A stretch of 64,000 bases of DNA, taken from an uncultured Chloroflexia bacterium (GTDB taxonomy: Bacteria; Chloroflexota; Dehalococcoidia; DSTF01; WHTK01). The DNA is taken from assembly GCA_963766645.1 (NCBI GenBank), contig CAVYAY010000001.1, positions 531,020 through 595,019 of the forward strand. Reading direction: 5' to 3'. The notes beneath the pieces are model-generated. The model made no database searches. It was not told the DNA's origin and saw only the letters and a program-made list of their open reading frames with translations. The first letter of the stretch is position 1; each line of letters begins with the position of its first letter. A program made the position numbers and the translations under genes. This document shows positions 14,519 through 39,973 of the stretch, one piece after another.

Positions 14519-14570
14519 GTTCAGCGCCCTCTCGTCACGTGCCCGAGTGAGGTCACGCGAGCTCCCGGTT

Positions 14571-16864: not shown

Positions 16865-16865
16865 C

Positions 16866-22020: not shown

Positions 22021-22042
22021 CCGGGACGAGCCTCCCGGGCCG

Positions 22043-22984: not shown

Positions 22985-22999
22985 GCGCTGTGCCTCTAA

Positions 23000-23878: not shown

Positions 23879-23879
23879 C

Positions 23880-24647: not shown

Positions 24648-24874
24648 GTCGGGACCCCTTTCGGGGGTTCACTCTAGCACCCGCACGCACCTGCTTCCGA
24701 AGTATTCCCGTTTGTACTGGAGCGCCTTTCAGCGGCCCACCCCAAAGGAATCTTGTAGACGCTTTCGATCGCCGGGATCGCGGACCTTCATAACCGGTGT
24801 GCACTGTCTTTGACACCCGGAATTACCGATGCTAGCTTCGCAAAGCTGTACAAGCGCTGAGCAAGGAGAATCGC

Positions 24875-25933
24875 ATGGTAACTCAGACTGCCGGAATCGA
24901 AGTTCTCAACCCGGTGGCTCAAACGGCCGCCGACGGCCAGGCGGTCCCGGCCGGCGATCTGCTGATGGCAGACCACGAGACGTTCGCGGGAGCGGACAGC
25001 TTCGACTCCTGGGAGAACTTCAACACCGAGTTCCTTGACCGCGGCTGGGGCGATGGCTTTCCCCTCGTGGCCCCGACCCGCGAGCGCGTAAATGCGTTCC
25101 TCGATTCTGTCAGGCACCTGGAGCTGGGGCCGTTGGACGTCATCGGCAAGCCCGTCGCTCCTGGCAACGGGATCGCGACGGTCGAGAAGCTCGCCATCAA
25201 CTGTGCAATGGCTGGTTGCCGTCCTGAGCACCTGACTGTCCTGATCAGCACGATTGAGGCAATCACCGAGACAGAGGATGTTGCCTTTCAGGCCGACCTC
25301 CAGTCGCCCGCCGGGCACTTCCCGATGATGCTGGTCAGTGGCCCGATAATACAGCAGATGGACATCAACTCCGGCATGTGCAGCCTGGGGCCGGGCAAAC
25401 CCTCGTTGGTCAACACCGTCCTCGGGCGCGCCCTGCGGCTCATCCTGATGAACGTTGGCCACGCATACCCGACTGCCAAGGACCTTGATACGATCGGCGT
25501 ACCGCAGAAGTTCAGTTACTGCCTCGCTGAGAACGAAGCCCAGAACCCCTGGGACGAACCCTTCCACGTTGAAATCGGTTTCCAACCCTCGGACAGCGTC
25601 ATTACCGTCTTCAGCGTCAGCGAAGTGGGCCACTTCGGCGGTTACACGGCAGAGCCGGAGCGTCTTCTCATCAGCCTTGCCAGGGGCATGCGGCACGCCG
25701 GCGGCGGTGAGCACGACGACAGCGGGCATCAGTACCTCATCATGTACTGCCCGGACCACGCGCGCAGCATGCACGTCGGCGGTGAGACCAAGGAGTCGAT
25801 CCGAAAGTTTGTTGTCGAAAACGTGCCCCTGAAGAACGGTGATAACGTGCACTTCACCGTCGTCGGCGGTCCGTCTTCCGGCAGCCACGTCTACAGGGCA
25901 TTGCCCTCCATCAGCAAGACGATTCGGCTCTAA
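24875..25933 (+). CDS. Uncharacterised 'GDGFP...AMAGC' family protein, copy P1 (no adjacent UxxC partner)
   Basis: 352 aa with AAGGAGAA upstream. Shares GWGDGFPLV, ATVEKLAINCAMAGCRPEHL, LGPGKPSLVNTVLGRALRLILMNVG and NPWDEPFHV with three paralogs in the window. I recognise no family name for it. Confidence 0.7.
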   Translation: MVTQTAGIEVLNPVAQTAADGQAVPAGDLLMADHETFAGADSFDSWENFNTEFLDRGWGDGFPLVAPTRERVNAFLDSVRHLELGPLDVIGKPVAPGNGIATVEKLAINCAMAGCRPEHLTVLISTIEAITETEDVAFQADLQSPAGHFPMMLVSGPIIQQMDINSGMCSLGPGKPSLVNTVLGRALRLILMNVGHAYPTAKDLDTIGVPQKFSYCLAENEAQNPWDEPFHVEIGFQPSDSVITVFSVSEVGHFGGYTAEPERLLISLARGMRHAGGGEHDDSGHQYLIMYCPDHARSMHVGGETKESIRKFVVENVPLKNGDNVHFTVVGGPSSGSHVYRALPSISKTIRL

Positions 25934-25990
25934 TACCGGAGGATCGCCTCCCGGCAGCAGGGCGGCGGCATCGAGATCGGGGGGTGCTGC

Positions 25991-28270
25991 GTGGCGGGTG
26001 CACTCGAAGGCATACGCGTCATCGATTTCGGCCAGTACATCGCCGGCCCGCTGGTCGCCATGCTCCTCTCCGACCAGGGCGCCGACGTCATTCGCGTCGA
26101 CCCGCCGGGTGGCCCGCGCTGGAGTCACCCAGCCAACGCCACGCTGAACCGCGGCAAGCGCCGATTAGAACTGGACCTTAGAGACCCGGCCGGCAAGACA
26201 GCCGCACTGAGTCTGATCGGCAGCGCCGACGTTGTTATCGAGAACTTCCGGCCCGGCGTCATGGAGAGTCTCGGGCTCGCCTGGGAGCAGGTGAGCCCTG
26301 ACCACGAGAGGCTCATCTACTGCTCGATTCCAGCCTTCGCCGCTGACGACCCTCGTGCCCGCTTGCCTGGCTGGGAAGGCGTCGTCGCCGCGGCGACTGG
26401 CGCTTTCCCCACTCGCCCCGGCCGCCGTCACCCGGCGAGCGCGGTCGAGCCAGAGGCAGTCGACGCGCCCCGGTTCACGGCGCTGCCGCTCGCGTCGGAG
26501 TACGGCGCGGTGGCGGCCGCGATCGGCATAGCGATGGCGTTGATCGCTCGCGAGCGCGACGGACTCGGGCAATGTCTGGAGATACCCCTCTTCAATGCGA
26601 TGTTTCTCGCCATCGGTTCCAGTGGCCTGCTGGTCAACGGCGGACCCTCGGGTGGACGCCCGATGGATCCCTGGGGCGGCATCTTCCCCGCCAAGGGCGA
26701 AGGCCGTGTGCTCATGAGCCTGCCCACGCCGCGATTCCTCGACACTTTCCTCAAGGCCACTGGCAAAGACCGCGAATGGGAAGACAAAGGCTACCTCGCG
26801 GCGGACGCCGTCAACGACAAGGATCTGATGGCGCGCCTTCAGCAAGACCTCGTCGACGTGTTCATGTCTCGCACTGCCGACGAGTGGGACGAACTGGCGA
26901 CCGAGGTAGGCGTCCCCGTAACGCCGGTGCGTCAGGCCCGCGGCTGGATGGAGGCGAAGCATACGCATGAGGCGGGGATATTCGTCTTGGTCGACGATCC
27001 GGAATTCGGGCCGATGGTCCAGCCCGGTCCGTCGATTAAACTCAACGGCACGCCGGGCGGCGTGCAGGCGCCGCGCGCGGCAACCGCCTCTCCGGGCATC
27101 GATGGCATCGACGTTACAGCCGCTATCGCCGGGCCCACAAAGGAACAACCCCTATCGGCGCCTCTCGAAGGCTTCCGGGTCATTGACACCACGTCGATCC
27201 TCGCCGGGCCCACGGCTGGCCGGACGCTCGCTGAGTTCGGCGCCGAGGTTATCAAGGTCAACAACCCTTGGGAGCAGGGGTCCGGTTATCGCTGGCAGGT
27301 CCACCGCTACCACAGCGACGTCAACCGCGGCAAGAAGTCGATCCTCATCGACCTGAAGCAGCCAGCGGGCCTCGACCTCCTCTGGCGGCTGGTCGAGAAG
27401 TCAGACGTCTACCTGCAGAACATGCGCCTCGGCGTTGCGCAGCGCCTCGGTGTTGCCTACGCGGACGTCAAAAAGCACAAGCCCGACATCGTCTACCTTT
27501 CGATCTCGGCCTTCGGCTACGGCGGGGAGTGGGAGTATCGTCCCGGCTATGAGCCCGTCGCGCAGAGCTTTTCGGGTATGCAGGCCCGCGGGCCCCAACC
27601 CTACGCCGTGAACGATTACTGCACAGGGTTGCTCGGCGCTTTCGGCGTTGGATTGGCTCTCTTTCATAGGCTACGCAGCGGTGAGGGGCAGAGCGTTGAG
27701 ACCTCGTTGGCCCACGCGTCAACCTATCTTCAGCTCCCTTACATGCAGCTCTACGCGGGCAAAAAGTGGGACGAACCCTCCGGCCCCCACGCCCGCGGCT
27801 GGAGCCCGCTACAGCGCATGTATCGCGCCAGCGACGGATGGTTCTTCTTGGGCGCGGCGTCCTCCCAGATAGACGCGCTGGCTTCGATCGCGGGGTTGGA
27901 AGCTGCGAAGCAGCCGACAGGAGACGCCCTGGCCGGCGCCCTCGAGGCCGCGTTCGCGGGGAAGACCGCGGCTGCCTGGGTCAAGTCGCTTACTGCTGCC
28001 GGGCTCGGCGCGTACCCCATCGGTATCACGGAGCCGGAGCTAATGGCCGATCCTTGGGTCGTTGACCACGGCCTCAGCGTCACCCAGACCTACAAGGACG
28101 GCTCGCGTATCACGACCATCGGCCCTCCTTGGCGCCTGTCCCGTACGCCCCCTTCCGTGCGACACCTCGTTTCGCCTCCTGGTGGCGATGCATACGAGGT
28201 TATCGCGAAAGCCGGCCTCAAGGACCGATTCGAAGAGCTTGTGCGCGAGAAAGCGGTTCTCCTCGAATAG
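25991..28270 (+). CDS. Tandem (two-domain) family III CoA-transferase
   Basis: 759 aa. Domain 1 starts LEGIRVIDFGQYIAGPLVAMLLSDQGADVIRVDPP. Domain 2 starts near residue 390 with LEGFRVIDTTSILAGPTAGRTLAEFGAEVIKVNNP. Confidence 0.8.
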   Translation: MAGALEGIRVIDFGQYIAGPLVAMLLSDQGADVIRVDPPGGPRWSHPANATLNRGKRRLELDLRDPAGKTAALSLIGSADVVIENFRPGVMESLGLAWEQVSPDHERLIYCSIPAFAADDPRARLPGWEGVVAAATGAFPTRPGRRHPASAVEPEAVDAPRFTALPLASEYGAVAAAIGIAMALIARERDGLGQCLEIPLFNAMFLAIGSSGLLVNGGPSGGRPMDPWGGIFPAKGEGRVLMSLPTPRFLDTFLKATGKDREWEDKGYLAADAVNDKDLMARLQQDLVDVFMSRTADEWDELATEVGVPVTPVRQARGWMEAKHTHEAGIFVLVDDPEFGPMVQPGPSIKLNGTPGGVQAPRAATASPGIDGIDVTAAIAGPTKEQPLSAPLEGFRVIDTTSILAGPTAGRTLAEFGAEVIKVNNPWEQGSGYRWQVHRYHSDVNRGKKSILIDLKQPAGLDLLWRLVEKSDVYLQNMRLGVAQRLGVAYADVKKHKPDIVYLSISAFGYGGEWEYRPGYEPVAQSFSGMQARGPQPYAVNDYCTGLLGAFGVGLALFHRLRSGEGQSVETSLAHASTYLQLPYMQLYAGKKWDEPSGPHARGWSPLQRMYRASDGWFFLGAASSQIDALASIAGLEAAKQPTGDALAGALEAAFAGKTAAAWVKSLTAAGLGAYPIGITEPELMADPWVVDHGLSVTQTYKDGSRITTIGPPWRLSRTPPSVRHLVSPPGGDAYEVIAKAGLKDRFEELVREKAVLLE

Positions 28271-28292: not shown

Positions 28293-29489
28293 TCAGATCG
28301 GCCGCGCGGCGTGGATGATCTCTCGCGTCACCGTCGGGTTCCCCATGCACGGCACCAGGTCGCTCTGCCCGTTCGGCCCGCCAACCACGACGATCTGCAC
28401 CTGCTCCGGGTTCTGAAACTCCGGCACGAGCTCTTCCGGGTCCATGGCCTCGAGGCGTTGCTGAAGGTCAGCTGGTAGCGCTTCCCAGCCGACTGACATC
28501 GTCGCCAGTGCCTGCTTCAGGGGCCTCCGCGCGTTTTGCAGCAGGTACTCCCTGATCGAGGTCTTGGTGTGACCCGATTCGCTGAGGACACGAGCGTGGT
28601 CGGGCGCCAGCAGCATCACCTGGCAAGACCCTCCTTCGCCCTCCGTCCGGCTCGGTATCAAGCCCGAAGGACCGCCCGATGCGGACGCCTTGCCGGCCCA
28701 GCCCAGCAATATCTTCTCCGCGTCGGCCTGGTAGTTGTTGTAATGCACCATGCTGTTCGCCCCGTACACGGTGACCGTGCTAGCGCTCCGCTCGAAACCC
28801 TTTTCGACGTGCAGCGGCTCCCAGGGGTTCTGCGCCTCGTTCTCAGCCACGCACATGCTGTACTTGGTCGGGCTGCCGATGGTGTCCATGTCGCCACTGC
28901 CGGGGTAGCAGTGGCCTACGTTCATCAGGACCAGCCGGAGCGCCCGGCCCAGGACTGTATTCACCAGCGACGGTTTGCCGGGGCCGAGGGTGCAGCGCCC
29001 GTTGTTGATACCCAGCTCCTGGACAATTGGCCCGTTGATCACCAGCATCGTCGTCGTCGGGTTCGTCGACATCGTGATGCCGCGGACGGGAAACACCTCC
29101 TGCGGTGTTTCGAGGATCGCCTCCACCGCTGCGATCAGTACCGCGAGATGCTCCGGCCGGCAGCCGGCCATGACTGCATTGACCGCGACCTTCTCCACTG
29201 TCGCGGCACCGTAAAACGGCGCCAGCTTGCCGAGGACGAGGCCGGGCGGCAAGCGCACCGCGCGCAGCGCCGCTTCAACGCGCGCGCGTGTCGGCGGGAC
29301 GAGCGGGAACCCGTCGCCAATGCCGCGCTCGTTGAAATCGCCGTTGAATCGGTCCCACGCCTCGATCAAGTCTTCGCCGTGGTAGCGCTCCCGCCGTGCG
29401 GGCAGCGGTTCCCGCCCGCGCAGGTCTGCCTCCAGCTGAGCCACCGGGTTCAGAACATCTAGCGTGGCGGTATCACTGCGGGAGCTCAT
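28293..29489 (-). CDS. 'GDGFP...AMAGC' family protein, copy P2
   Basis: GIGDGFPLVPPT, ATVEKVAVNAVMAGCRPEHLAVLIAAVEAI, LGPGKPSLVNTVLGRALRLVLMNVGHCYP, NPWEPLHV. The N-terminus has LDVLNPVAQLEAD. Confidence 0.7.
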   Translation of the reverse strand: MSSRSDTATLDVLNPVAQLEADLRGREPLPARRERYHGEDLIEAWDRFNGDFNERGIGDGFPLVPPTRARVEAALRAVRLPPGLVLGKLAPFYGAATVEKVAVNAVMAGCRPEHLAVLIAAVEAILETPQEVFPVRGITMSTNPTTTMLVINGPIVQELGINNGRCTLGPGKPSLVNTVLGRALRLVLMNVGHCYPGSGDMDTIGSPTKYSMCVAENEAQNPWEPLHVEKGFERSASTVTVYGANSMVHYNNYQADAEKILLGWAGKASASGGPSGLIPSRTEGEGGSCQVMLLAPDHARVLSESGHTKTSIREYLLQNARRPLKQALATMSVGWEALPADLQQRLEAMDPEELVPEFQNPEQVQIVVVGGPNGQSDLVPCMGNPTVTREIIHAARPI

Positions 29490-29523
29490 GGCACAGTCCC
29501 AGCACCACAGGGGGAGGCCTGGT

Positions 29524-30027
29524 TCAGGACTCCCGGATCAGGCAAGCGATAATCGAATCGAGAGCCGCCTCGGCTGCCTCTTCCACTTGGCTGTCCGACA
29601 GGGTTGCCAGCAACCTTCGCAACTCCACGAACTCGTAGTTCTGCAGGCCCATCACCCGCGCCATAGAGCGTACGATGTTCGCATAGGCCCGGTTGCATAT
29701 TGTCACGCCCGGCTTGCCGTCCCGTTCGGCGGCATACATGTCGTGCAAACTGCACGACGCGCACGGCGCTCAATCGCCAATCGCAGTGATGAAGACGTCC
29801 GCACGGGGGATGAAGCCCTCAAGCAGCTTGCTGTCGGCCGGCCAGGTTGGCTCGAGCTTGCTTGCCCAGACTACATCCCGCAGGTTGAACCGCGCCCGGA
29901 GGAGCTCAACGACCTTCTCCAGAAAGACCTTGCTCCCATGCTTGTTATTGTCGAGTACGCCTAGCACGAGCCCGTCCAGGCTGACGGGACGTTCCGCGGC
30001 CAGTGTCTCGCCAGAGTCCCTCGACAA
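29524..30027 (-). CDS. Putative small selenoprotein, UxxCxxC variant (U-A-P-C-A-S-C) of the UGSC-type family (U3)
   Basis: ORF 29770..30027 ends ...FITAIGD-TGA (29772..29770). The same frame stays open for 81 more codons: APCASCSLHDMYAAERDGKPGVTICN...ACLIRES (ORF 29524..29748 is its tail). It is collinear with the other two UxxC genes. Confidence 0.65.
29740..29758 (-). promoter_or_regulatory. SECIS-like hairpin, 11 nt after the TGA
   Basis: mRNA GUCGUGC-AGUUU-GCACGAC: perfect 7-bp stem with a 5-nt loop. Confidence 0.55.
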
Positions 30028-30037
30028 AGCTATTTCC

Positions 30038-30283
30038 CTACCTGGCCGGGACGATCTCGACTTCCCTCACGTACGGCGCCTGCGCCTTGCACATCGCCTC
30101 GGCCATCTCCTTGAACGCGTCTGGCTCCATGATGCACTCGGGGCATTCCGCGTTCGTGCCCTCGTAATAACGGACGCGTAGCACGCCGGCTTCAACGTTC
30201 ATGGGCTCGACGATTACGCCCTCGTTGTCCTCCAGGGATGACCTCAGCGTGTTCAGAATGAGCTCGATTTTCTCGTCGATCAT
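30038..30283 (-). CDS. NifU/Nfu C-terminal-domain-like small protein with a CPEC motif
   Basis: 81 aa. IELILNTLRSSLEDNEGVIVEPMNVEAGVLRVRYYEGTNAECPECIM matches the Nfu pattern (dGG..elv....g.v.v...G.C..C). Confidence 0.6.
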   Translation of the reverse strand: MIDEKIELILNTLRSSLEDNEGVIVEPMNVEAGVLRVRYYEGTNAECPECIMEPDAFKEMAEAMCKAQAPYVREVEIVPAR

Positions 30284-30320
30284 GACGTCTCCAGACCAGC
30301 CGCAATTGCGGCCTTCTCTA

Positions 30321-32033
30321 TCAGGTTTCGATAACCTTGCTGATCGAGGCTGGCCCTGTAATGAACTCGCTCACACCGTGGTCGCCGCCAATTACGGCGA
30401 TGTGGATATGACTCGGGTTCGGGTCGCCCCGGATTGGTGTCTCCGGGTCCATGGCTGCGATACGGTCCTTGACCTCCTGCGGCACAGCTTCCCAACCGAT
30501 GAAAGCATACGTTGCGAGGAATTCACGAAGCGGTGTCGCGGGCGCGTTTTGCACCATGTACGCCTGCAGATCGGCTTTGCTGTAGCCGGCCGCGACCAGG
30601 CTGCGAGCGTGTTCCGGCCCCAGGATCAGGAGCTGCCCGCCACGGTCGGCATCACCCTCTGTGCGGCTAGGTATGCCCAACGCTCCGCCACCACCCGCGC
30701 CAGAGCCACCGCCACCCGCCGCACCACGGGCGGCCAGTACCTTGAGCAACGGGCCGACGTCGCCGGGGTCGCTGGCAAACGACGAGACGTCGCCTGCGGC
30801 AAACATCGTTACCACGCTTTGGTCCGCGTCAAAGCCCCGGCTGACGTGGAAAGGCTCACCCCAGGGGTTGGCGTCCTCATTCTCGGCGAGAACGGCGCTG
30901 TACTTGCCGGAAGTCCCAATCGTATCGAGGTCCAGAATCTCCGGATACGCCTGCGCCACGTTCATGATGATCAAACGCATCGCCCGGCCGATTACCGTGT
31001 TGACGCGGCCCGGCTTGCCAGGGCCCCACGCGTTCATTCCTGTGTGCAGTCCAAGCTGCTTCACAATCGGTCCGTTCAGCAGCATCAGCGGATAGCCCGC
31101 GCCGTGAGAAGACAGCAGGATCCGCAACGGAAACTGGCCGATCGGTGACTCCAGCATCGCCTGTATCGCGGCGATCAAGACCGGCATGTGAGCTGGCTCG
31201 CAGCCGGCCATCGCAGCGTTGATCGCGATCTTTTCGATGGTCGCCATGCCGTCGCCGGGCGGGAAGGGGCGTCCCACCACGTCCAGCGGCTGCCAGCGGT
31301 TGCTCACGTAGTCGAGGAACGGTTTTACACGTTCGGGAGTCGGTGGGAACAGCGGGAAACCATCGCCCCAACCTCGCTCCATAAACGCCTCGTTGAACGC
31401 CTCCCATGCGTTGAGCCGGCTGGAGGACCCAAAGGATTCCGTGGCCGCCCGCTGCAGTTCACGCACGACAGCTCCCGAAACGTCCGCCGGTGGCGTCACG
31501 AGCGCCTCCAGCACCTCGGGCAGCGATGCGTCCGCATCCCCGCTGGCCTGGGGCTCTGTCCGGCTTGTCAGGGTGTACGGGATCACGACTTGCACCAGGG
31601 AGGGGAAACCGAACACCTTTGACGATGCGGCAAAATCTGCTTCATAGCCGACCGACGTGATGGAGACCGTGGGGATCCCGAGCTTCTCAAGCTCTGTCAT
31701 GTCATACGCAAGGTACGACGTGCAGGACCCTCAATCGGCTGTCGCGCCGACCACGATGTCGCAGTGATCAGCCTCGATTGCCTCCAGCACCGATTTCTGG
31801 ATCGGACGCCTGCTGTCGTAGTGGAAGGTTTCCATACTTGGAAACTGCTGCTTCAGCCGAGTCTCAACCTGGTTCAGGTAGTGGATGCCACCGGGTTTGC
31901 GGTTCCAGTAGAAGCCGACCCGCTTACCTTCCAATGACCTGGGTCGAGTCGGCATCACAAGCGCCTCACCCAGGTCTGCAGCCAGCTGCGAAACCGGGTT
32001 CAGTACCTCAAATGCATCAGTCTCGGTAACCAT
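30321..32033 (-). CDS. Putative selenoprotein: UGSC-type domain fused to a 'GDGFP...AMAGC' domain (U2-P3), 570 aa if TGA is read as Sec
   Basis: ORF 31731..32033 ends ...DIVVGATAD-TGA (31733..31731). The same frame continues GSCTSYLAYDMTELEKLGIPTVSITSVGYE... into ORF 30321..31700, which carries GWGDGFPLFPPT, NAAMAGCEPAHMPVLIAAIQAM, WGPGKPGRVNTVIGRAMRLIIMNVAQAYP and NPWGEPFHV. Confidence 0.7.
31701..31719 (-). promoter_or_regulatory. SECIS-like hairpin, 11 nt after the TGA
   Basis: mRNA GUCGUAC-CUUGC-GUAUGAC: 7-bp stem (one G.U pair) with a 5-nt loop. Same spacing and geometry as the hairpin at 29740..29758. Confidence 0.55.
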
Positions 32034-32097
32034 CGTCTCCTCCTGCGCAGTAATCGGAACCGTCGCATTAGAATCTAGCCGCGCTCACGCGAAGCGG

Positions 32098-33081
32098 TCA
32101 AAAAGCATAACCATTTGGCTTGACCATTTCCCGGGACGAACGCGTCAGCTCATCTGTCTGCTGATGCCGCTCGAGGAGCCACGCCATGAACACGCGGGCT
32201 ACCGGCGACAAAGGCCTTCGCGGGTGGACAAGGTAAAGCTTCCTGTCAAAGCGAATGCCGCGGATCCGGACCGGAGCTGCGCCGACAACCTCGCCTCGAC
32301 TGAAGGGAAGGTATGAAATCCACGACATGCCGAAGCCGTGTGAAACCGCGTTGAGACAGGCCTGGGCCGAATTCAGCGCCATCACAACACGCCGCTGAGG
32401 ATGCTCGATACCCAACTGACGAAGTTTTGACGCCACCGTGGACACAACCGTCCCCACGTCCGCTGAAGACCTGTCACGGATGATGAACGGCTGTCCCGCA
32501 AGATCTTCCAGGTCGATCTCGCCGCAGGCCGCGAAGCGATGCGTCGACGGCACCGCCAGGACAACTTCGTCATCCGCCACCGGATAGCATCGAAGCGATT
32601 CGGAGGCGGGGCTGCGACCGATGAAGCCGAGTTCGGAGCCGCCCTCCAGAAGGTCTTCCTCGACGCCGTCGCTGTCTGAAATAAAGACGTGGGGCGCAAC
32701 GTCCGGGTTCTCGGCGCTAAACTCTCGCACCCAGCCCAGCACCAGGAAGTCGCAGAGCGTGGTGCTGGCGCCGATTCGCAAATCGCCCCTCGCTTCGCTG
32801 GATTCCCGTCGTATCTCCTCCATGACGTTGTCGAACCGGCCGAGCGTGTCGCGCGCGTCGGCCAGGAACTTCTCGCCCATGGTGGTCAGCTCCAGGTGCC
32901 TCGCATCGCGCTCGAACAGCGTCACGCCCAGGCGCCCCTCCAACTTCATAAGCTGCCGGCTGACTGCCGGCTGCGTAACGCCGAGACGCTTGGCCGCCGC
33001 CGTAAAGGTGCCCGTCTCCTCGGCTGCAATCAACGTCCGCATCTCGTTCAGCGAAACTTCGGCTTCCTTCCGGGTTCTCAT
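32098..33081 (-). CDS. LysR-family transcriptional regulator
   Basis: HTH LNEMRTLIAAEETGTFTAAAKRLGVTQPAVSRQLMKLEGRLGVTLFERDARHLELT. Start trimmed to ATG 33081, preceded by GGAGGC. Confidence 0.85.
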   Translation of the reverse strand: MRTRKEAEVSLNEMRTLIAAEETGTFTAAAKRLGVTQPAVSRQLMKLEGRLGVTLFERDARHLELTTMGEKFLADARDTLGRFDNVMEEIRRESSEARGDLRIGASTTLCDFLVLGWVREFSAENPDVAPHVFISDSDGVEEDLLEGGSELGFIGRSPASESLRCYPVADDEVVLAVPSTHRFAACGEIDLEDLAGQPFIIRDRSSADVGTVVSTVASKLRQLGIEHPQRRVVMALNSAQACLNAVSHGFGMSWISYLPFSRGEVVGAAPVRIRGIRFDRKLYLVHPRRPLSPVARVFMAWLLERHQQTDELTRSSREMVKPNGYAF

Positions 33082-33183
33082 GATAGCCTCCTGACGACGA
33101 CAGCCTATGCATTTCTGGCATATTGTAGCCAAGTTCCATACCTGATTGGTATGATGGCCGCTCGTCAGAGACCTCTCGGGTAC

Positions 33184-34128
33184 TTAGGAGTTCCTCTCGC
33201 CGCGATTCTTGAGATAACGGTAAGCGGCGACCGCCGCCGTTGCCCCGTCGCCGGCGACGGCAGCTAGCTGAGCCACCGAATTCTGGCGGATGTCGCCCGC
33301 TGCGAAGACCCCAGGCGCCGACGTCTGCATCATGATGTCGGTCACTATGTGGCCACTCGGGTCGAGATCGACAGCTCCCTGGAGGAACGTCGTATTCGGG
33401 TCAAGGCCCACGAAGATAAATACGCCGGCAAACTCCTGGGTCTCGCTCTTCCCGGTAGCGAGATCCACTAACCGGACGCCCGTCACAGCGTCGCTGCCGA
33501 TGATTTCTTCGACCTGGCGCCCATAGGCCACCTTCAGGTTTGGTTTTGCCTCGGCCTTCTCGACAATGGCCCGCTGCAATCGCAGCTCCGCGCCGCGGTG
33601 AAACAGCGTCACGTCAGACGCGAATTCGGTCAGCACGACGGCTTCGTCCACCGCCGCGTCGCCGCCGCCGACTACGCAGACCGACTGCCCGGAAAAGAAG
33701 GGACCATCGCAGGACGCGCAATGCGAGACGCCTTTCCCCACCAACTCCTCTTCGCCCGGCACGCCGAGGCTACGCAGCGTCGAACCCGAAGCGATGACCA
33801 GCGTCCGCCCGGTCACCTCGCTCTCATCGCACCTTACGAGCTTCTCATCGCCGCCAGTGTCGATCGAGAGGGCCGAATCAAAAACAAACTCGGCGCCCGC
33901 CATCTGGGCCTGCTCTTGCAGCATCGGCCCGAGTTCATACCCCGGGACGCCTTCTGGGAACCCCGGGAAGTTCTCAACTTTGTCGACGTTGATGATCTGA
34001 CCGCCCGAAGTGCCCCTGTCGATCACGGCGACACTTAGCCCGAAGCGGCTGGCCGTCAAAGCGGCCGTCAGTCCGGCGACGCCTGCGCCAATAACCAGCA
34101 AATCGTAGTCACTCATGTCCGTTCCCAC
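33184..34128 (-). CDS. trxB: Thioredoxin-disulfide reductase
   Basis: YDLLVIGAGVAGLTAALTASRFG (FAD GxGxxG), redox-active VSHCASCDGPFF, second dinucleotide site VVGGGDAAVDEA, C-terminal FAAGDI. Confidence 0.85.
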   Translation of the reverse strand: MGTDMSDYDLLVIGAGVAGLTAALTASRFGLSVAVIDRGTSGGQIINVDKVENFPGFPEGVPGYELGPMLQEQAQMAGAEFVFDSALSIDTGGDEKLVRCDESEVTGRTLVIASGSTLRSLGVPGEEELVGKGVSHCASCDGPFFSGQSVCVVGGGDAAVDEAVVLTEFASDVTLFHRGAELRLQRAIVEKAEAKPNLKVAYGRQVEEIIGSDAVTGVRLVDLATGKSETQEFAGVFIFVGLDPNTTFLQGAVDLDPSGHIVTDIMMQTSAPGVFAAGDIRQNSVAQLAAVAGDGATAAVAAYRYLKNRGERNS

Positions 34129-34164
34129 CGCTCACTTCCCAGTACATCAGATAGCCCGCCCTGA

Positions 34165-35881
34165 TTAGCCGCCCGAGCGCACCAGTTCGGGCCCAAGCTC
34201 TCGCACGTCCTGAATTGGGCCGGAGCTGTAGTCGCCAAGCCGAAGCTGCACCGACGCTTGCTGATCTCCGAAAGCCTCATGGCGAAGAACGACATTGCTC
34301 AGACCGCATTGCGATACCGCCGCCCGCGCTAACGAAAGCATCTGTGCATCGCCCGGGGCTCCCTTTAGCGTGGCGATGCAAGGTGGCGACAAGAAGCGCG
34401 CCAGCGCGCCACCGAAGCCTGCCGCCATGGCGCCGTACTCGCGGTGAAACTCGTCGAACGGCCAGAGAGCCCCAGTAGGCCCCTTCTCGGTAGACGGACT
34501 CGCCGGTGAGGTCCGCCAACCGTGTTAGGAACGCAGCCGCTTGAGCGTTCTGAGCCGGGAGCGTCAACGGACGACCCAACCCTCCCGGGCCTGTTGCGCT
34601 GATATCGGAGTAGCCTCCGGCCGGATTGCGGTGCTCCGAGACAACGTAGACCGCCAGGTCCAGGGCCCGCTGCAGTTGCGTCACATCGCCCAGCAGGGCA
34701 TACGCGTCCAGCATCGCCGACCCGGCTGCGACAGCATCTAGCAACAAACCGTAAATCAAAGGTTCGCCATCCCAGTAGTGAGACAGGCCGCCATCCTGCT
34801 GGTGAAGCGTGACCCAGAGCCACTCAAGGACTGTTACCGCGCGGTCTCGGCAGTCCTCTCGGCCCAGGATTAGCCATGCCTGCATGTATGCAGATGCGGC
34901 GCGGGCGTTCTGGTCGGCGTAGACGCAATCGTCGAGGTACGAGTCCAGCGGGCCGTCCACACCTTCCGGACCCGCAACGCGTCGGATGTAGTCCTGGCAG
35001 CCGAGGAACACGCCCTTGTCAGCGTCCAGTAGCGTCCCGTCCATGTCGTCGATCAGCTCCTCCGCGCAACCGCGGTAGAAGTCATCACCGGTCAATAAAA
35101 AGGTATGTAGGAAGTTGCGGAGCATCCCGGCCTGGTCGTCGAGCAGCTTCTCCGGGTGCGGCTCCTCCCAGTCCAGGCGAGACGAGTAGCGATAGTAGCC
35201 TCCTCCGCCTTCAGAGTGATACATGCTGCTGGAACGCATTTTCTCTAGCGTCAGCTGTACATGGGTTAGAAATAATCCCTCTCCGGTCACCTCGTACAGG
35301 TATAGGAAAAGGTCGTTCGCTTCGCTATGCGGGAACTTCGATTCGAGGCCGTATCCACCGTGTACTGGGTCGGCGAGGCCCTGCACCATGCCTGCGATCT
35401 CGCCCACGAGCGAGACGTTGAGACCCGCCCGGTTAGGGGTAGCCACGGGCCGGTCTGTCTGGGTTGCCCGTACCCGTTCGATTAGCTCTTCCTTCTTCTC
35501 GTGGTACGTGTTGGCGGCCTGCGCCAGGATGTCAACCATCGGCTTGGGACCGAGCGAGTTGAGCGTGAACATGTGGTCACCACCGGGTGTAAGAATCGCC
35601 AGGGTCGGCCAGCCGTTTTGCGTGTAGCGCGCGTCTATGTCCGGCCGGCGCGCTTCCTCCACGCGGATTGGCAGGAAGTTCGCGTTCAGCGATGCAATGA
35701 CCTCGTCGTCGGAGAACGTAACCTCGTCCATGCGCTGGCAGGCGCCACACCAGAAGGCCACAATCTCAAGGAAGACGGGCTTGTCCAGCTGTTTCGCTTC
35801 TGCGAAAGCGGCGTCGCCCCACGGCCGCCATTCGATCAGGTGAGCCTTGTTCGGCCGCGCCGAGAAGCGGAACTCCCTCAT
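34165..35881 (-). pseudogene. Thioredoxin-domain (DUF255 / YyaL-like) protein with a CGAC motif; one frameshift near 34459-34461
   Basis: N-terminus FLEIVAFWCGACQRMDEVTFSDDEVIASLNANFLPIRVEEARRPDIDARY. The body is like the six-hairpin-glycosidase-type domain of YyaL. The C-terminus continues in ORF 34165..34428 (FDEFHREYGAMAAGFGGALARFLSPP...). The span is 1717 nt. Confidence 0.65.
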
Positions 35882-35945
35882 GCCGCGGCCACGGAAGCGC
35901 GAGTAACCGATCGACCGTGATTAGGGCTGGCGAAGGGTCTCGCCG

Positions 35946-37064
35946 CTAGTCCCATTCCCAGTTGATCTTCTTGGTGACCATGCCGCCGCCGTCGCGCTTG
36001 GAGTGGTTGCCGCCCGTGAACAGGTAGCTCACATGGCCGCCGCCCCATCCACCACTCACCATGACCTGCATGTGTGACGGGTCGGTGATGTGATAGACCT
36101 TGGCCTCGCCGTCATTGAGGTCGACGCGATTAGCCCAGTGGTTCGCCGCTGTGTGGGTTTCCTGCGGCACCCCCGGAGACTGCAAATCGTGCTGCGCCTG
36201 CTTGTCTTTGACCAAGTGATACGTGTTCTCCCACACCGTGTCGCGGAAGCGTTCCTTGCTCCAGCCGGCGTCGGCAAGCATCTTCGCCGCATCCGGATTA
36301 AGTGCTATGACCGTGCAGGCGCCGCTGCGTAACTGTGCGATCCGGCGGCCCATATCGGCCACATTGCGCTCCAGGTCGGCGCCCGTCCTGACGAAGCCCG
36401 TACCCAGATACGTGCCGTGAGCGTCGAGCACCGTGACCGCACTGTCTTCAGCCTTCAGTCCAGCCGCGCTGACGTGGAAGGGCTCCCACGGGTTTCCGTC
36501 GTCGGTAGGCCGCTCGCAGATCAGATGGCCCCAACGGTCGGCCTGAGCGAAGACACACTTCGCCAGTTCCCCTGGCTTCGTCAGCCCGACATTCCACTGG
36601 ATCAGCCGTATCGCCCTCGCGATCGTGCCATTCGCACGGTTGCCGGAACCCGCCAGCGCGCCTTCGGCATAGTGGAAGCCGAGCTTCTTCACCACGGGTC
36701 CGCTGATGATTGCGAGCGGCGGACCCCCCACCGTACTGACTGAATTCAGGATGTGGTAGTCGTCATCCAGGATCGCCTCCATGGCGGTAATCACCACTGG
36801 CACGTACTCCGGCCGGCAGCCTGCCATCGCGCAGTTGATAGCGATCGCCTCCATCGTGACCTCGCCCTCACCAGGCATGAGGACACCGAGACTCTCGTCC
36901 GCCGGGCGACCGATGTAGTCGAGAATCTGCCGCACCCGCCGCTCGGTGGGCACGAAGACCGGGAAGCCATCCGTCCAGCCCTGTTCGAAGACGAAGTCGG
37001 TGAAATCGTCGATGTCTTCGATGCTGAACTTCTTCGCCGCCAGCTTGAAATCTTCCGCAACCAT
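35946..37064 (-). CDS. 'GDGFP...AMAGC' family protein, copy P4 (most divergent)
   Basis: GWTDGFPVFVPT, EAIAINCAMAGCRPEYVPVVITAMEAI, GNRANGTIARAIRLIQWNVG, NPWEPFHV. Start trimmed to ATG 37064, 2 nt after the TAA of the upstream UGSC gene. Confidence 0.7.
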   Translation of the reverse strand: MVAEDFKLAAKKFSIEDIDDFTDFVFEQGWTDGFPVFVPTERRVRQILDYIGRPADESLGVLMPGEGEVTMEAIAINCAMAGCRPEYVPVVITAMEAILDDDYHILNSVSTVGGPPLAIISGPVVKKLGFHYAEGALAGSGNRANGTIARAIRLIQWNVGLTKPGELAKCVFAQADRWGHLICERPTDDGNPWEPFHVSAAGLKAEDSAVTVLDAHGTYLGTGFVRTGADLERNVADMGRRIAQLRSGACTVIALNPDAAKMLADAGWSKERFRDTVWENTYHLVKDKQAQHDLQSPGVPQETHTAANHWANRVDLNDGEAKVYHITDPSHMQVMVSGGWGGGHVSYLFTGGNHSKRDGGGMVTKKINWEWD

Positions 37065-37066
37065 CG

Positions 37067-37708
37067 TTATTCCCCTGTTTCCTGCGAGGACGATTCCCGG
37101 CCGCGGCGCGGTTGCGAGCCCCGCTGACTCTCCTGCGGCTGCCACTTCTGAGCCGTCAGCATGTCTTTCAGCTTCATCGCCTGCTCGTGTGCCTTGAGCA
37201 CGACTTCCTCGTGTGACTCCGCGGACGGCTTGTCCGCCGGGTACGCGATCACGACATTGCTAGAGTCTTCGATGCCCAGCAACTTCAACTCCGTCCGAGC
37301 AAGCCTTTCGAAGTGCTCGTGGACCATAACCACGGAGGGGATACCTTCTTTTAGCATGTTTGCCGCGTCACGCACGGCTGCAGTACTGCAGGATCCTCAA
37401 GCCCCGACGCCGGTGATCGCATAGTCGATCTTCGGCGCCATCTCCTGGATATCTGAGATGGGGGATGGTATCCACGTGTTGCCGTGGAACTTACCGTCGC
37501 CCATGTCGTGTTTGTAGTGACGTTGGATGTCGCGGGGCTCGTAGAGCTCGGTCACCGCGTTTTCCATCTCCGGCCAGAACTTCGTCGAGATATCGTGCAT
37601 GCCCCAGAGGAACCCGACACGCTGGCCCTCAACTGTCTCAATCGTCTTCAACGGCTTCCGCTGCGTCGCTGCCGTTGAGCCTTCGGGAGAAAGGAACTCA
37701 ATGCTCAT
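37067..37708 (-). CDS. Putative UGSC-type selenoprotein (U1), 213 aa if TGA is read as Sec
   Basis: ORF 37397..37708 ends ...DYAITGVGA-TGA (37399..37397). The same frame continues GSCSTAAVRDAANMLKEGIPSVVMVHEHF... into ORF 37067..37375. Confidence 0.7.
37362..37378 (-). promoter_or_regulatory. SECIS-like hairpin, 18 nt after the TGA
   Basis: mRNA GCCGUG-CGUGA-CGCGGC: 6-bp stem (one G.U pair) with a 5-nt loop. An alternative smaller hairpin, CUGCA-GUAC-UGCAG, lies 5 nt after the TGA. Confidence 0.4.
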
Positions 37709-38265: not shown

Positions 38266-38341
38266 TGGTAGCGGTACGGGGATTCGAACCCCGGTTTTAG
38301 CCTTGAGAGGGCTACGTCCTGGTCCCCTAGACGATACCGCC
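38266..38341 (-). tRNA. tRNA-Glu (anticodon CUC), CCA encoded
   Basis: Hand-folded 76 nt: acceptor GGCGGUA/UACCGCU (G1.U72), D stem GUCU/GGAC, anticodon stem UAGCC/GGCUA with loop CU-CUC-AA, T arm CGGGG-UUCGAAU-CCCCG, discriminator A, CCA. Confidence 0.9.
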
Positions 38342-38356
38342 CTGCGAAAGTCGTAG

Positions 38357-38430
38357 TGGCTGGGGAGGGAGGATTCGAACCCCCGCATACGGATCCAGAG
38401 TCCGCTGTCCTACCACTAGACGACTCCCCA
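38357..38430 (-). tRNA. tRNA-Gln (anticodon CUG), CCA encoded
   Basis: Hand-folded 74 nt: acceptor UGGGGAG/CUCCCCA, anticodon stem GCGGA/UCCGU with loop CU-CUG-GA, T arm GGGGG-UUCGAAU-CCUCC, discriminator G, CCA. Confidence 0.9.
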
Positions 38431-38482
38431 TCGGGGCTTCATCCTAGCATAGCGATTTCCGGCGATCCAAACCGCATAAACC

Positions 38483-39973
38483 CTACTGCAGCATCTGCAC
38501 AGCCTCGCGCAACCGCAGCACGCAAAGCTCCCGCCCCAGCACCTCCATCGACTCCGTCAGCGGCGGCGACACCGGCCGCCCTGTGATCGCGACCCGCAGC
38601 ATCCCCGCCAGGTCGCGGAACTTGACCTCGATGCGGTCCGCCAGCGCGCGATACGCCTCCAGCAGCGCTTCGTGCTCCCACGCCGCCGTCTGCTCCGAGG
38701 CCACCAGCACCTCCGACAGCACCGCCGCCGCCTCGGCCCGCTTGCCGGCGTACGGCTTGCCCAGCAGGTCGTCGACCGCCGGCTCGACGCCGCCCGGCAG
38801 GTAGAAGAACCCCATCATCTCGTGTGCCTTCGAGGCCAGCTTTACACGCTCCTGCACCAGCGGCACGATGCGCTTCGAGTACTCGCGGTCCAGCGGCCGC
38901 GGCACGATCGACGGCAGGCCGCCCTCCGCGTCCGGCTTCTCCAGCCACGGCGTCACCACGTCGACGAACTCGTCCGGGCTCAGCGCCCGCATGTACTCGC
39001 CGTTGATCCAGTCCAGCTTCTCAATATTGAACACGGCCGGGCTTTTCAGCAGCCGCTCCAGGCTGAAGTGCTGCACGAACTCGTCGCGCGAGATGATCTC
39101 CGTCTTGTCGTCCAGCGACCACCCCAGCAACCCGAGGAAGTTGAACACCGCCTGCGGCAGGTACCCCTGATCGCGGTACTCCAAAACCGACTGCGCGCCG
39201 TGTCGCTTCGACAGCTTCGACCGGTCCGTCCCCAGGATCAGCGGCGTGTGCACCCACACGGGTGGCTCGTAGCCCAGCGCCTCGTACACTCGGAGGTGCA
39301 GCGGCGCCGACGGCAGCCACTCCTCGCCGCGCAGTACGTGCGTGATTTCCATCTCGTGGTCGTCCACCACCACCGCCAGGTGGTACGTCGGGAAGCCGTC
39401 CGACTTCAGCAACACCGCGTCGTCGATGCGGTTGTTCTCGAAGCGCACCTCGCCGCGCAGGAAGTCGTACACCACCGTCTCGCCCTCGCCCGGCGCGCGG
39501 AAGCGCACCACGGGCGGCCGGTCGCCGGCGTCCGCTTTCGCCTTGGCCCGACCCTCGTCCGTGCTGCACAGTCCGTCGTAGCCCGGCGGCAGCTTCTGTT
39601 CGCGCTGCCGGTTCCGCATCGCGTCCAGCCGCTCCGGCGTGCAGTAGCACTCGTAAGCCTGTCCCGACGCGAGCAGACGCTTCGCCGCGTCCTGGTACAG
39701 CGGCAGACGCTCCGACTGGAAGTACGGTGCGTGCCGCCCACCCACCTCCGGTCCCTCGTCCCACTGCAGCCCCAGCCAGCGCAACGACTCGTAAATCTCG
39801 TCCAGCGACTCCGGCACGTACCGGTTCTGGTCCGTATCCTCGATGCGCAGGATGAACTGCCCGCCGCTATTGCGCGCCGCCAGCCAGTCAAAGATCGCGG
39901 TGCGCGCCGTCCCCAGATGTGGCGTCCCGGTGGGACTAGGCGCAAGGCGAACACGGACGGGGCCTGTACTCAT
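38483..39973 (-). CDS. gltX: Glutamate--tRNA ligase
   Basis: RVRLAPSPTGTPHLGTARTAIFDW (HIGH-type motif), FILRIEDTD, KLSKRHG (KMSKS). Confidence 0.95.
   Translation of the reverse strand: MSTGPVRVRLAPSPTGTPHLGTARTAIFDWLAARNSGGQFILRIEDTDQNRYVPESLDEIYESLRWLGLQWDEGPEVGGRHAPYFQSERLPLYQDAAKRLLASGQAYECYCTPERLDAMRNRQREQKLPPGYDGLCSTDEGRAKAKADAGDRPPVVRFRAPGEGETVVYDFLRGEVRFENNRIDDAVLLKSDGFPTYHLAVVVDDHEMEITHVLRGEEWLPSAPLHLRVYEALGYEPPVWVHTPLILGTDRSKLSKRHGAQSVLEYRDQGYLPQAVFNFLGLLGWSLDDKTEIISRDEFVQHFSLERLLKSPAVFNIEKLDWINGEYMRALSPDEFVDVVTPWLEKPDAEGGLPSIVPRPLDREYSKRIVPLVQERVKLASKAHEMMGFFYLPGGVEPAVDDLLGKPYAGKRAEAAAVLSEVLVASEQTAAWEHEALLEAYRALADRIEVKFRDLAGMLRVAITGRPVSPPLTESMEVLGRELCVLRLREAVQMLQ

What the first reader, a model, noticed from the sequence alone, without database searches (positions are those of the whole stretch)
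28293..37708. Candidate undescribed selenium/thiol redox system: three UxxC selenoprotein genes, each coupled to a 'GDGFP...AMAGC' protein, with NifU-like, TrxB, YyaL-like thioredoxin-fold and LysR genes
All nine genes lie on the minus strand with short gaps:
- U1 (37708-37067), with only 2 nt before P4 (37064-35946)
- the YyaL-like gene (CGAC motif)
- trxB (CASC motif)
- the LysR regulator
- the U2::P3 fusion
- the NifU-like gene (CPEC motif)
- U3 (UAPCASC motif)
- P2

The module therefore carries six U/CxxC redox motifs. The same two-component unit (a small UxxC domain plus a ~370-aa domain with an invariant AMAGC cysteine) appears three times, once as a gene fusion. Fusion is the classical sign of a functional partnership.

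UGSC-containing selenoproteins were, to my recollection, listed as a function-unknown family in marine metagenome selenoproteome surveys. I know of no described partner or pathway.

A trxB gene embedded among selenoprotein genes recalls the thioredoxin-dependent glycine/proline reductase operons. In those, selenoprotein B (to my recollection) carries a UxxCxxC motif. The surrounding 8 CoA-transferase domains suggest acyl-CoA or organic-acid substrates. Both of these points are inference.
Basis: partly seen in the sequence, partly recalled or inferred. Interest (0 to 1): 0.9.

Follow-up and report, generated by a model that had tools for sequence, protein, structure and literature searches.

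The report
UGSC selenoproteins with obligate partner domain
The window holds three genuine selenocysteine-encoding genes of the known but functionally uncharacterised "UGSC" family, each fused or adjacent to the same unnamed ~360-residue partner domain; across hundreds of environmental genomes the two parts almost never occur apart, which marks them as one two-part enzyme of unknown substrate.

Summary
Three minus-strand genes carry an in-frame TGA at the U of a UxxC motif. All three match Pfam PF24696 (UGSC). The TGA aligns with Cys in homologues, and a covarying SECIS-type hairpin follows it. Each gene is fused or adjacent to a "GDGFP…AMAGC" protein (P); a fourth P copy lies at 24875-25933.

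The family is not undescribed. UGSC selenoproteins were reported in 2007-2008, and a "UGSC/Unknown_1" fusion was noted in 2008. Their function was still listed as unknown in a 2026 review.

New here:
- U and P are mutually near-obligate. 93 of 108 P domains have a fused or adjacent U, and 89 of 93 assessable U genes have a P.
- 97 of 101 U domains use Sec.
- P has no Pfam, NCBIfam or PDB relative, although its AlphaFold models are confident.
- P is occasionally fused to an AhpC/TSA-like domain or a ferredoxin-thioredoxin-reductase domain instead.
- Thioredoxin reductase, thioredoxin-fold and small CPEC (NifU-like) genes recur beside the P4 branch but not the P2/P3 branch.

Best reading: a two-part selenol/thiol oxidoreductase recycled by the thioredoxin system and embedded in organic-acid catabolic islands. 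Substrate unknown. No link to glycine/proline reductases was found.

The parts
37067..37708 (-). U1: standalone UGSC-family selenoprotein gene. The Sec codon TGA is at 37397-37399 (motif GVGA-U-GSC).
   Evidence: Translation. PF24696 E 8.8e-27. Cys-form homologue in L206.
37362..37378 (-). Candidate SECIS hairpin of U1: GCCGUG-CGUGA-CGCGGC, starting 18 nt after the UGA.
   Evidence: Fold. Less canonical than the U2 and U3 hairpins and not tested by covariation.
35946..37064 (-). P4: divergent partner-domain protein (GWTDGFPV...INCAMAGC). It starts 2 nt after the U1 stop.
   Evidence: About 30% identity to P1-P3. No Pfam or NCBIfam hit. 2559 homologues.
34277..35881 (-). Thioredoxin-fold DUF255/YyaL-like protein with WCGAC motif.
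   Evidence: PF03190 E 2e-23. The same gene follows P4 homologues in L202 and in the P0283 contig.
33184..34128 (-). Thioredoxin reductase-like flavoprotein (CASC).
   Evidence: TIGR01292 scores 318.8 bits against a cutoff of 343. TrxB-like genes lie beside U/P in L017, L018, L203 and L206.
32098..33132 (-). LysR-family regulator.
   Evidence: PF00126 and PF03466. The best NCBIfam match is NF040786 'selenium metabolism-associated LysR' at 176 bits, below the cutoff of 250. It is not a conserved neighbour.
30321..32033 (-). U2::P3: UGSC domain fused to a P domain. The Sec codon is at 31731-31733 (TAD-U-GSC).
   Evidence: Translation. PF24696 E 5.7e-28. 40 comparable fusions in other genomes.
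31701..31719 (-). SECIS-type hairpin of U2: GUCGUAC-CUUGC-GUAUGAC, starting 11 nt after the UGA.
30038..30283 (-). Small NifU-C-terminal-like protein with CPEC motif.
   Evidence: PF01106 E 2e-3, below the gathering score. A similar CPEC protein lies in the U-P cluster of L206.
29524..30027 (-). U3: standalone UGSC-family gene with the variant motif U-APC-ASC. The Sec codon is at 29770-29772. It lacks the family's first beta-strand.
   Evidence: Translation. PF24696 E 4e-33. The HMM match starts at model position 14.
29740..29758 (-). SECIS-type hairpin of U3: GUCGUGCA-GUU-UGCACGAC, starting 11 nt after the UGA.
   Evidence: Fold z = -2.1. Covariation in the family.
28293..29489 (-). P2: partner-domain protein (GDGFPL...VNAVMAGC). 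Its N-terminus, LDVLNPVAQ, resembles the first strand of U in the fusions.
   Evidence: More than 5319 homologues. AF2 pLDDT 91 and pTM 0.91. No PDB relative.
24875..25933 (+). P1: fourth P copy. It has no adjacent U and lies upstream of a double CoA-transferase gene (25991-28270).
   Evidence: tblastn shows 49% identity to P2. Alignment A3.

Best explanation
The locus encodes three copies of a two-part selenoenzyme, one fused and two split.

Part U is a small alpha/beta domain. It carries a selenocysteine-x-x-cysteine motif at the N-terminus of a helix.

Part P is a ~360-residue domain with no recognisable relatives. It has an invariant cysteine (AMAGC) and many invariant polar residues, so it is probably the substrate-binding catalytic part.

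Shown:
- The TGAs are Sec codons with SECIS hairpins.
- U and P are mutually near-obligate partners across many phyla.

Inferred mechanism:
- The selenol of U attacks or reduces a substrate or intermediate held by P.
- The resulting Se-S bond is resolved within the UxxC motif, or with the P cysteine.
- The selenenylsulfide is then re-reduced by a thioredoxin-type system.
- In this locus that system would be TrxB plus the DUF255 thioredoxin-fold protein, possibly with the CPEC protein.

The substrate is unknown. The gene neighbourhoods point to catabolism of organic acids or aromatics.
For: Sec decoding:
- Conservation runs across the TGA.
- Homologues carry Cys at the TGA position.
- 97 of 101 related U domains have TGA at this position, and UxxC is kept in 99 of 101.
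- The SECIS hairpin covaries.
- A selB-derived sequence lies in the window.

Partnership:
- 108 P domains in 80 loci: 40 fused, 29 U>P adjacent, 24 P>U adjacent.
- 120 loci chosen by the Sec motif alone: 89 have P within 1.2 kb, and only 4 assessable loci lack it.
- The AF2 model of a Cys-form fusion is confident as a whole (pLDDT 93.7, pTM 0.93).

Redox reading:
- UxxC sits at a helix N-terminus.
- P is alternatively fused to an AhpC/TSA-redoxin domain (P0253).
- A U::P fusion carries a C-terminal ferredoxin-thioredoxin reductase catalytic domain (P0217).
- TrxB-like, thioredoxin, DUF255 and CPEC genes recur beside U-P in L017, L018, L202, L203 and L206 and in the P0283 contig.

Catalytic P:
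- 18 invariant and about 60 near-invariant columns, many of them polar, across 110 sequences of about 38% mean identity.
- 7198 representatives at 50% clustering.
Against: - No substrate or chemistry is shown.
- Thioredoxin-system genes are absent from most P2-type loci.
- The neighbourhoods are heterogeneous: luciferase-like monooxygenases, TctC, enoyl-CoA hydratase, CoA-transferase, NHL, FMN_dh and MmgE/PrpD.
- The selB-like sequence in the window looks degraded.
- No tRNA-Sec, selA or selD was seen in the window.
Confidence: 0.6

Rival explanations
1. U-P is a metal- or Fe-S-cluster-dependent hydro-lyase or isomerase. Sec, the UxxC cysteine and the AMAGC cysteine would together ligate a metal or cluster at the domain interface. 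It would not run a redox cycle.
For: - The best, though weak, Foldseek hits of P are class I (Fe-S) fumarate hydratases (6uqn_B E 1e-3, 7xky_A). Much weaker hits go to the Fe-S cysteine desulfidase CyuA (E >= 1.4).
- A NifU-like CPEC protein recurs.
- Neighbours include dehydratase-type families: enoyl-CoA hydratase and MmgE/PrpD.
Against: - TM-scores are 0.2-0.27 with rmsd 15-19 A, which is not a real superposition.
- P has only one invariant cysteine. The second, C213, is Val in P3.
- The alternative fusion partners of P are thiol-redox modules.
Confidence: 0.12
2. U-P is a protective or repair oxidoreductase, such as a peroxidase or a reductase of oxidised sulfur, selenium or electrophile adducts. 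It would not be a catabolic enzyme.
For: - An AhpC/TSA::P fusion exists.
- Thioredoxin-system genes are neighbours.
- UxxC selenoproteins are typically antioxidant (PMC2398784).
Against: - Many paralogues occur per genome: 4 in this window, and up to 5 in a single ~20-kb locus in L002/L004.
- The genes are embedded in varied catabolic and transport clusters. This fits substrate-diversified enzymes better.
Confidence: 0.2
3. The TGAs are real stops, so U1, U2 and U3 are split or decaying genes and Sec decoding has been lost in this organism.
For: - The selB-like sequence at about 15510-16864 is frameshifted and lacks domains II-III.
- No tRNA-Sec is in the window.
- Another gene (18429-19349) looks truncated.
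Against: - All three frames remain open and conserved after the TGA, including 459 codons in U2::P3.
- The SECIS hairpins of U2 and U3 are intact.
- The window is only 64 kb of a contig of at least 916 kb, so intact sel genes may lie elsewhere.
Confidence: 0.06

Closest known systems
UGSC-containing selenoprotein family (Pfam PF24696; NCBIfam NF041046; Zhang & Gladyshev 2007/2008), including the reported 'UGSC/Unknown_1' fusion
   Same: The domain is the same, with Sec at the same UxxC position and a SECIS directly downstream. There is a fusion to a conserved domain containing one conserved Cys. The habitat (aquatic and soil metagenomes) also matches.
   Different: - The window genes fall below NCBIfam's equivalog cutoff.
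- U3 has the rare UAPCASC motif and lacks the first strand.
- The literature treats the fusion as an occasional curiosity and guesses a thioredoxin-like fold.
- Here the partner is near-obligate, and the predicted fold is a parallel beta-alpha-beta (flavodoxin/Rossmann-like) domain.
- That Unknown_1 is the P domain is likely but could not be verified, because the figure is held only as an image.
Glycine/sarcosine/betaine and D-proline reductases (GrdB/PrdB selenoproteins with GrdE/PrdA)
   Same: A UxxC selenoprotein working with a separate substrate-specific protein. Dependence on a thioredoxin-type reductant is plausible. Substrate-diversified paralogues occur in both.
   Different: No sequence or fold relationship was detected. 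No GrdA-, GrdC- or GrdD-like genes are present. The hosts are mostly aerobic or facultative heterotrophs, not Stickland fermenters. There is no evidence of a pyruvoyl group.
Thioredoxin-fold UxxC/CxxU selenoproteins (Prx-like, Trx-like, DsbA-like, SelW-like)
   Same: A redox motif at a helix N-terminus, existence of Cys homologues, and a link to the thioredoxin system.
   Different: The predicted topology of U is not the thioredoxin fold. U is tied to a large dedicated catalytic partner.

Membership tests
UGSC family (Pfam PF24696) | Match to the family HMM above the gathering score (25 bits) | tested here: met
   U1 94.8 bits, U2 98.6 bits, U3 115.4 bits.
UGSC family (seleno)protein, NCBIfam NF041046 equivalog | Score at or above the curated cutoff of 125 bits | tested here: not met
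   66.1, 86.7 and 101.2 bits. These are family-level relatives, not equivalogs of the 147-aa standalone form.
UGSC family | Sec (or Cys) in a U-G-S-C / UxxC motif | tested here: met
   U1 and U2 have UGSC and U3 has UAPC. In 101 relatives the motif counts are UGSC 66, UGGC 14, UGAC 9, UGTC 4 and UAPC 2.
Bacterial selenoprotein gene | SECIS stem-loop immediately downstream of the UGA | tested here: met
   U2 and U3 have hairpins starting 11 nt after the UGA. Covariation holds on 71 sequences. U1 has a plausible but untested hairpin.
Bacterial selenoprotein gene | Host has selA, selB, selC and selD | tested here: inconclusive
   The window holds only a degraded selB-like sequence and no tRNA-Sec.
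Glycine/proline reductase selenoprotein B (Pfam PF07355 GRDB) and GrdE/PrdA (PF09338) | Sequence or fold similarity of U to GrdB/PrdB, or of P to GrdE/PrdA | tested here: not met
   No Pfam hit at E<=10. A profile search against PDB sequences gave 0 hits at E<=10. No such protein appears in the top 50 Foldseek hits of either model.
Thioredoxin-fold oxidoreductases | beta-alpha-beta-alpha-beta-beta-alpha thioredoxin topology in U | tested here: not met
   The AF2 model shows five beta-alpha units. The best structural matches are flavodoxin-like, periplasmic-binding-protein and MccF-type domains (3fni TMt 0.49). The U domain was not searched on its own.
Thioredoxin reductase (TIGR01292) | Equivalog cutoff of 343 bits and a CxxC active site | tested here: inconclusive
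   318.8 bits, just below the cutoff. The CASC motif is present.

The most novel reading that the evidence does not exclude
U-P is a widespread, previously unrecognised class of two-component selenocysteine-dependent reductase. Its catalytic domain, P, has a fold with no solved relative. It is recycled by thioredoxin-type systems and has diversified into many substrate-specific paralogues in heterotrophs that degrade organic acids and aromatics. That would make it a functional analogue of the glycine/proline reductases outside fermentative anaerobes.
Probability: 0.35. Interest if true: 0.8.

Novelty: new member of a known kind. Interest (0 to 1): 0.55.

Why it matters
UGSC proteins ranked fifth by selenoprotein count among the families found in ocean and freshwater metagenomes (255 Sec sequences in GOS). 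Almost two decades later they still have no function.

If they are one half of an obligate two-part enzyme, the problem changes:
- The unit to express, crystallise and assay is U+P, not U alone.
- The partner family is large: about 7200 clusters at 50% identity. It currently has no Pfam or NCBIfam model and no structure.
- Gene callers split all of these genes at the TGA. The fusions appear in databases as 100-aa and 447-aa "hypothetical proteins".
- Cys-form versions exist in named genera: Sphingomonas and Sphingorhabdus (as MAGs) and the culture-collection strain Natrialba asiatica DSM 12278. A Sec form was reported in Hyphomonas neptunium. These make experiments feasible.

Tried and rejected
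- A homologue search with the U2 domain gave only 7 hits, all 100-aa fragments ending at the TGA. It was of little use for building an alignment.
I modelled the Cys-form homologue P0041 instead.
- The first locus scan, with the 118-sequence alignment, failed for lack of a conserved stretch. It was redone with 13 sequences.
- Neighbour clustering on TGA-readthrough ORFs was swamped by antisense shadow ORFs. It was redone with a GC3 filter and shadow removal.
- Supplement text of the 2008 paper did not let me confirm that Unknown_1 is P, because the figure is an image and the dataset is cut.
- Rfam gave no SECIS family hit at gathering threshold, only the two tRNAs.
- The GrdB/PrdB-GrdE/PrdA analogy was rejected for lack of any sequence or fold signal.
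- The idea that CoA-transferases are specific partners was rejected. They occur in about a quarter of loci, and these families are expanded in the same genomes anyway.


Full report
OBSERVATION

The nine genes are present on the minus strand at the stated coordinates. The intergenic gaps are 2 to 148 nt.

Translating through the three suspected positions gives continuous, family-like proteins:
- U1: ...AITGVGA-U-GSCSTAAVRD...
- U2::P3: ...VGATAD-U-GSCTSYLAYD..., running on into a 459-residue P domain
- U3: ...TAIGD-U-APCASCSLHD...

Third-position GC content stays high on both sides of each TGA. All three match Pfam PF24696 'UGSC family' well above its gathering score, and each match spans the TGA. 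They also hit NCBIfam NF041046 'UGSC family (seleno)protein', but below its strict equivalog cutoff.

- WCGAC in a DUF255/Thioredox_DsbH protein
- CASC in a thioredoxin-reductase-like protein
- CPEC in an 81-residue weak NifU-domain protein
- AMAGC in each P protein

A fourth P copy, P1, lies on the plus strand at 24875-25933, just upstream of a double CoA-transferase gene. The eight CoA-transferase III domains, two enoyl-CoA hydratases, an HpcH-type aldolase and a hydrolase are confirmed.

ARE THE TGAs SELENOCYSTEINE CODONS?

Homologues carry Cys at the same position.
- Full-length fusion proteins of about 560 residues have Cys exactly where the window has TGA (STADCGSCTS, TTADCGACSS).
- A U1-type homologue in locus L206 reads VGVGGCGSCSTATVRD.

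Sec dominates in relatives. I translated 80 related genome loci with TGA read through and searched them with HMMs of U and P. Of 101 U domains found, 97 have TGA at this column, 3 have Cys and 1 has Gly. UxxC is kept in 99 of the 101.

A SECIS-type hairpin follows the UGA.
- In U2 and U3 an 8-bp (7-bp in U2) hairpin starts 11 nt after the UGA.
- On 71 distinct homologous sequences the hairpin is 87.5% paired.
- Six of its eight pairs show changes on both sides. For example, one pair is G-C in 51 sequences and C-G in 17.
- No shuffle out of 500 reaches its covariation score, and slid registers collapse.
- In U2 the W-to-Y and H-to-Y codon changes compensate each other in the stem.
- U1 has a different 6-bp GC-rich hairpin 18 nt downstream. 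It is plausible but untested.

The Sec machinery is the weak point. The window contains a selB-derived sequence at about 15510-16864.
- It has a GTPase domain (TIGR00475 positions 2-153).
- It has two SelB winged-helix domains.
- These lie in different frames, and domains II-III are missing.
- It therefore looks like a pseudogene or an assembly artefact.
- No tRNA-Sec is in the window.

The window is 64 kb of a contig of at least 916 kb, so this does not decide the matter.

IS THE U-P COUPLING REAL?

From the P side: 108 P domains were found in 80 independent loci. The loci come from Dehalococcoidia and other Chloroflexota, Betaproteobacteria, Sphingomonadales, Binatia, Rokubacteria/Methylomirabilota, Poribacteria, an actinomycete and the archaeon Natrialba.
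- 40 are fused to U in the same read-through frame.
- 29 have U immediately upstream.
- 24 have U immediately downstream.
- 9 have a U elsewhere in the locus.
- 6 have none.

From the U side: I scanned metagenome contigs with a DNA pattern covering only the Sec codon, the UGSC motif and the SECIS stem.
- All 120 stretches returned lie in U domains.
- 89 have a P domain within 1.2 kb on the same strand.
- 27 end too close to a contig edge to judge.
- 4 lack P, and only one of those has ample flanks.

For the P4 branch, gene tables around ten homologues show U directly upstream in every case that has upstream sequence. U and P are therefore mutually near-obligate, as fusions in either order or as neighbours.

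Gene callers split the Sec forms. The database holds them as 100-residue N-terminal pieces and roughly 447-residue C-terminal pieces that carry the tail of PF24696.

WHAT ARE THE TWO PARTS?

P is a large family.
- More than 5319 hits at 90% clustering in a capped search.
- 7198 representatives at 50% clustering with E<=1e-3, and 2134 with E<=1e-30.

P has no recognisable relative.
- No Pfam or NCBIfam hit, even at E<=10.
- No PDB sequence hit with a profile at E<=10.

The AlphaFold2 models are confident.
- pLDDT 91 and pTM 0.91 for P2.
- pLDDT 93.7 and pTM 0.93 for a whole Cys-form fusion.

Foldseek against the PDB finds nothing convincing for P.
- The best hits are class I fumarate hydratases at E about 1e-3, but with TM 0.2-0.27 and rmsd 15-19 A.
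- After those come Toblerone-fold amide hydrolases and CyuA at E>0.1.

The alignment shows 18 invariant and about 60 near-invariant columns. They include D-G-F-P, T-V-E-K, A-G-C, H, S-T, N-G-P, L-G-P-G, N-T..G-R-A.R, D.D-T.G and K-Y-S.C. This is the signature of an enzyme active site, with one invariant Cys.

U is predicted as five beta-alpha units, with the Sec/Cys at the N-terminus of the third helix. Its structural neighbours are flavodoxin-like, periplasmic-binding-protein and MccF-type domains at modest scores. The thioredoxin fold guessed in 2008 was not among them.

One detail supports physical contact in the split pairs.
- U3 lacks the family's first strand; its HMM match starts at position 14.
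- P2 and P1 begin with LDVLNPVAQ and IEVLNPVAQ, the motif that forms that strand at the N-terminus of the fusions.

WHAT DOES IT DO?

Nothing here shows a substrate. The evidence for a thiol/selenol redox mechanism is indirect but consistent.

The motif itself:
- UxxC is conserved and sits at a helix N-terminus.
- Sec is used overwhelmingly, and Cys variants occur.

Rosetta-stone fusions:
- P0253 is an AhpC/TSA-redoxin domain fused to P.
- P0217 is U::P with a C-terminal ferredoxin-thioredoxin-reductase catalytic domain.

Recurrent thioredoxin-system neighbours in the P4 branch:
- Thioredox_DsbH follows P in L202 (85% identity to P4) and in the P0283 contig (65%).
- A TrxB-like gene precedes U in L203/L204.
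- L206 has TrxB::thioredoxin, thioredoxin, an aldehyde dehydrogenase, a CPEC NifU-like protein, a dehydrogenase, a Cys-form U and P in one string.

Among the P2-type loci, TrxB abuts U or U::P in L017 and L018.

Against a fixed 'system': in the 80 P2-type loci DUF255 occurs in 0, LysR in 1, the NifU-like gene in 1 and TrxB in 5.

The commonest neighbours in those loci are catabolic and transport families:
- luciferase-like monooxygenases (16 loci)
- TctC/Bug binding proteins (16)
- enoyl-CoA hydratases (12)
- CoA-transferase III (11, or about 19 by phmmer)
- NHL/SGL propellers (10)
- short-chain dehydrogenases, FMN-dependent dehydrogenases and MmgE/PrpD

Elsewhere Meth_synt_2, Rieske/LigXa and ring-cleavage dioxygenases appear.

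Several features suggest a substrate-diversified enzyme family that may work as a P dimer:
- many paralogues per genome, with four P copies in this window and up to five in a single ~20-kb locus in L002/L004
- tandem P-P' gene pairs
- P-P fused proteins of about 715-741 residues

My best reading follows. U delivers a selenol to a reaction in the P active site. The Se-S bond formed is resolved by the UxxC cysteine or the AMAGC cysteine, and is then re-reduced by thioredoxin-type proteins.

Rivals:
- a protective or repair oxidoreductase
- a metal- or cluster-binding hydro-lyase that uses Sec and Cys as ligands
- decayed genes (least likely)

COMPARISON WITH WHAT IS KNOWN

The UGSC-containing protein was reported in 2007 as a selenoprotein of unknown function, also present in Hyphomonas neptunium (PMC1976440). 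In the 2008 GOS analysis it ranked fifth by selenoprotein count, with 255 Sec sequences and 21 Cys homologues, and was more frequent in non-marine samples. [quoted passage not shown] A 2026 review still lists it among families whose functions are largely uncharacterised (PMC13188914).

So the family, and very probably the fusion partner, are not new. I could not verify that Unknown_1 is P, because the figure is not held as text.

I found no prior statement of the following:
- the near-obligate two-way linkage
- the split, fused and reversed architectures
- the size and orphan status of the P family
- the predicted non-thioredoxin fold of U
- the alternative redox fusions
- the branch-specific association with the thioredoxin system

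The comparison with glycine/proline reductases remains an analogy only. No sequence or fold similarity was detected.

VERDICT

This is a new set of members of a known but uncharacterised selenoprotein family, and it shows clearly that the functional unit is U plus P. Interest is moderate to high for selenium biology and for the annotation of environmental genomes, because a very abundant selenoprotein family becomes experimentally tractable as a defined two-part enzyme.

Noticed in passing
window 15510-16864 (+): A selB-derived sequence. The GTPase domain (TIGR00475 positions 2-153) lies in one frame and the SelB winged-helix domains (PF09106, PF09107) in another. There are at least two frameshifts near 15975-16060, and domains II-III are missing. 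It is either a pseudogene or an assembly artefact, and it bears on whether this organism still decodes Sec.
   Followed up: partly
window 18131-19349 (-): The CoA-transferase III ORF at 18429-19349 matches only positions 1-273 of the 366-position model. A short ORF in another frame (18131-18373) follows. This looks like a frameshifted gene, so the contig may carry indel errors or several pseudogenes.
   Followed up: no
window 12078-28270: A dense acyl-CoA island: eight CoA-transferase family III domains (one gene is a double-domain 759-aa protein), two enoyl-CoA hydratases, an HpcH/HpaI aldolase and an alpha/beta hydrolase. A similar 762-aa double CoA-transferase lies near a U-P pair in L205.
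   Followed up: partly
window 29462-29489 and 24890-24925; U3 at 29524-30027: P2 and P1 start with LDVLNPVAQ and IEVLNPVAQ, the motif that forms the first beta-strand of the U domain in the fusion proteins. U3 lacks that strand. This suggests strand complementation between the split partners, or descent from a fusion by excision of the U core.
   Followed up: partly
P0160, P0157, P0177, P0258; L203 6970-9074; L207/L210: Tandem P-P' gene pairs and P-P fused proteins of 616-741 residues, each half keeping the AMAGC cysteine. P may act as a (hetero)dimer served by a single U.
   Followed up: partly
L016 2998-3861 and L018 1046-1918: In two Dehalococcoidia loci a DUF6282 (PF19799) TIM-barrel-like gene sits between U and P. 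In L018 a trxB-like gene lies directly upstream of U.
   Followed up: partly
L205 8142-9353 and L209 7073-8230: Meth_synt_2 (MetE C-terminal-like) genes lie directly beside U-P pairs. Ring-cleavage dioxygenase genes are nearby in both loci and a Rieske/LigXa gene in L209. This hints at aromatic or lignin-derived substrates for that sub-branch.
   Followed up: no
window 38266-39973 (-): tRNA-Glu(CTC), tRNA-Gln(CTG) and a glutamyl-tRNA synthetase gene lie directly upstream of the cluster, where housekeeping genes resume. GC3 jumps to about 0.9 there, against about 0.75-0.8 in the U-P cluster.
   Followed up: no
window 5718-7325 (-), 45961-48015 (-), 48029-48715 (-): Long ORFs with coding-like GC3. 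5718-7325 has no Pfam or NCBIfam match. 45961-48015 and 48029-48715 have no NCBIfam match and were not scanned against Pfam.
   Followed up: no
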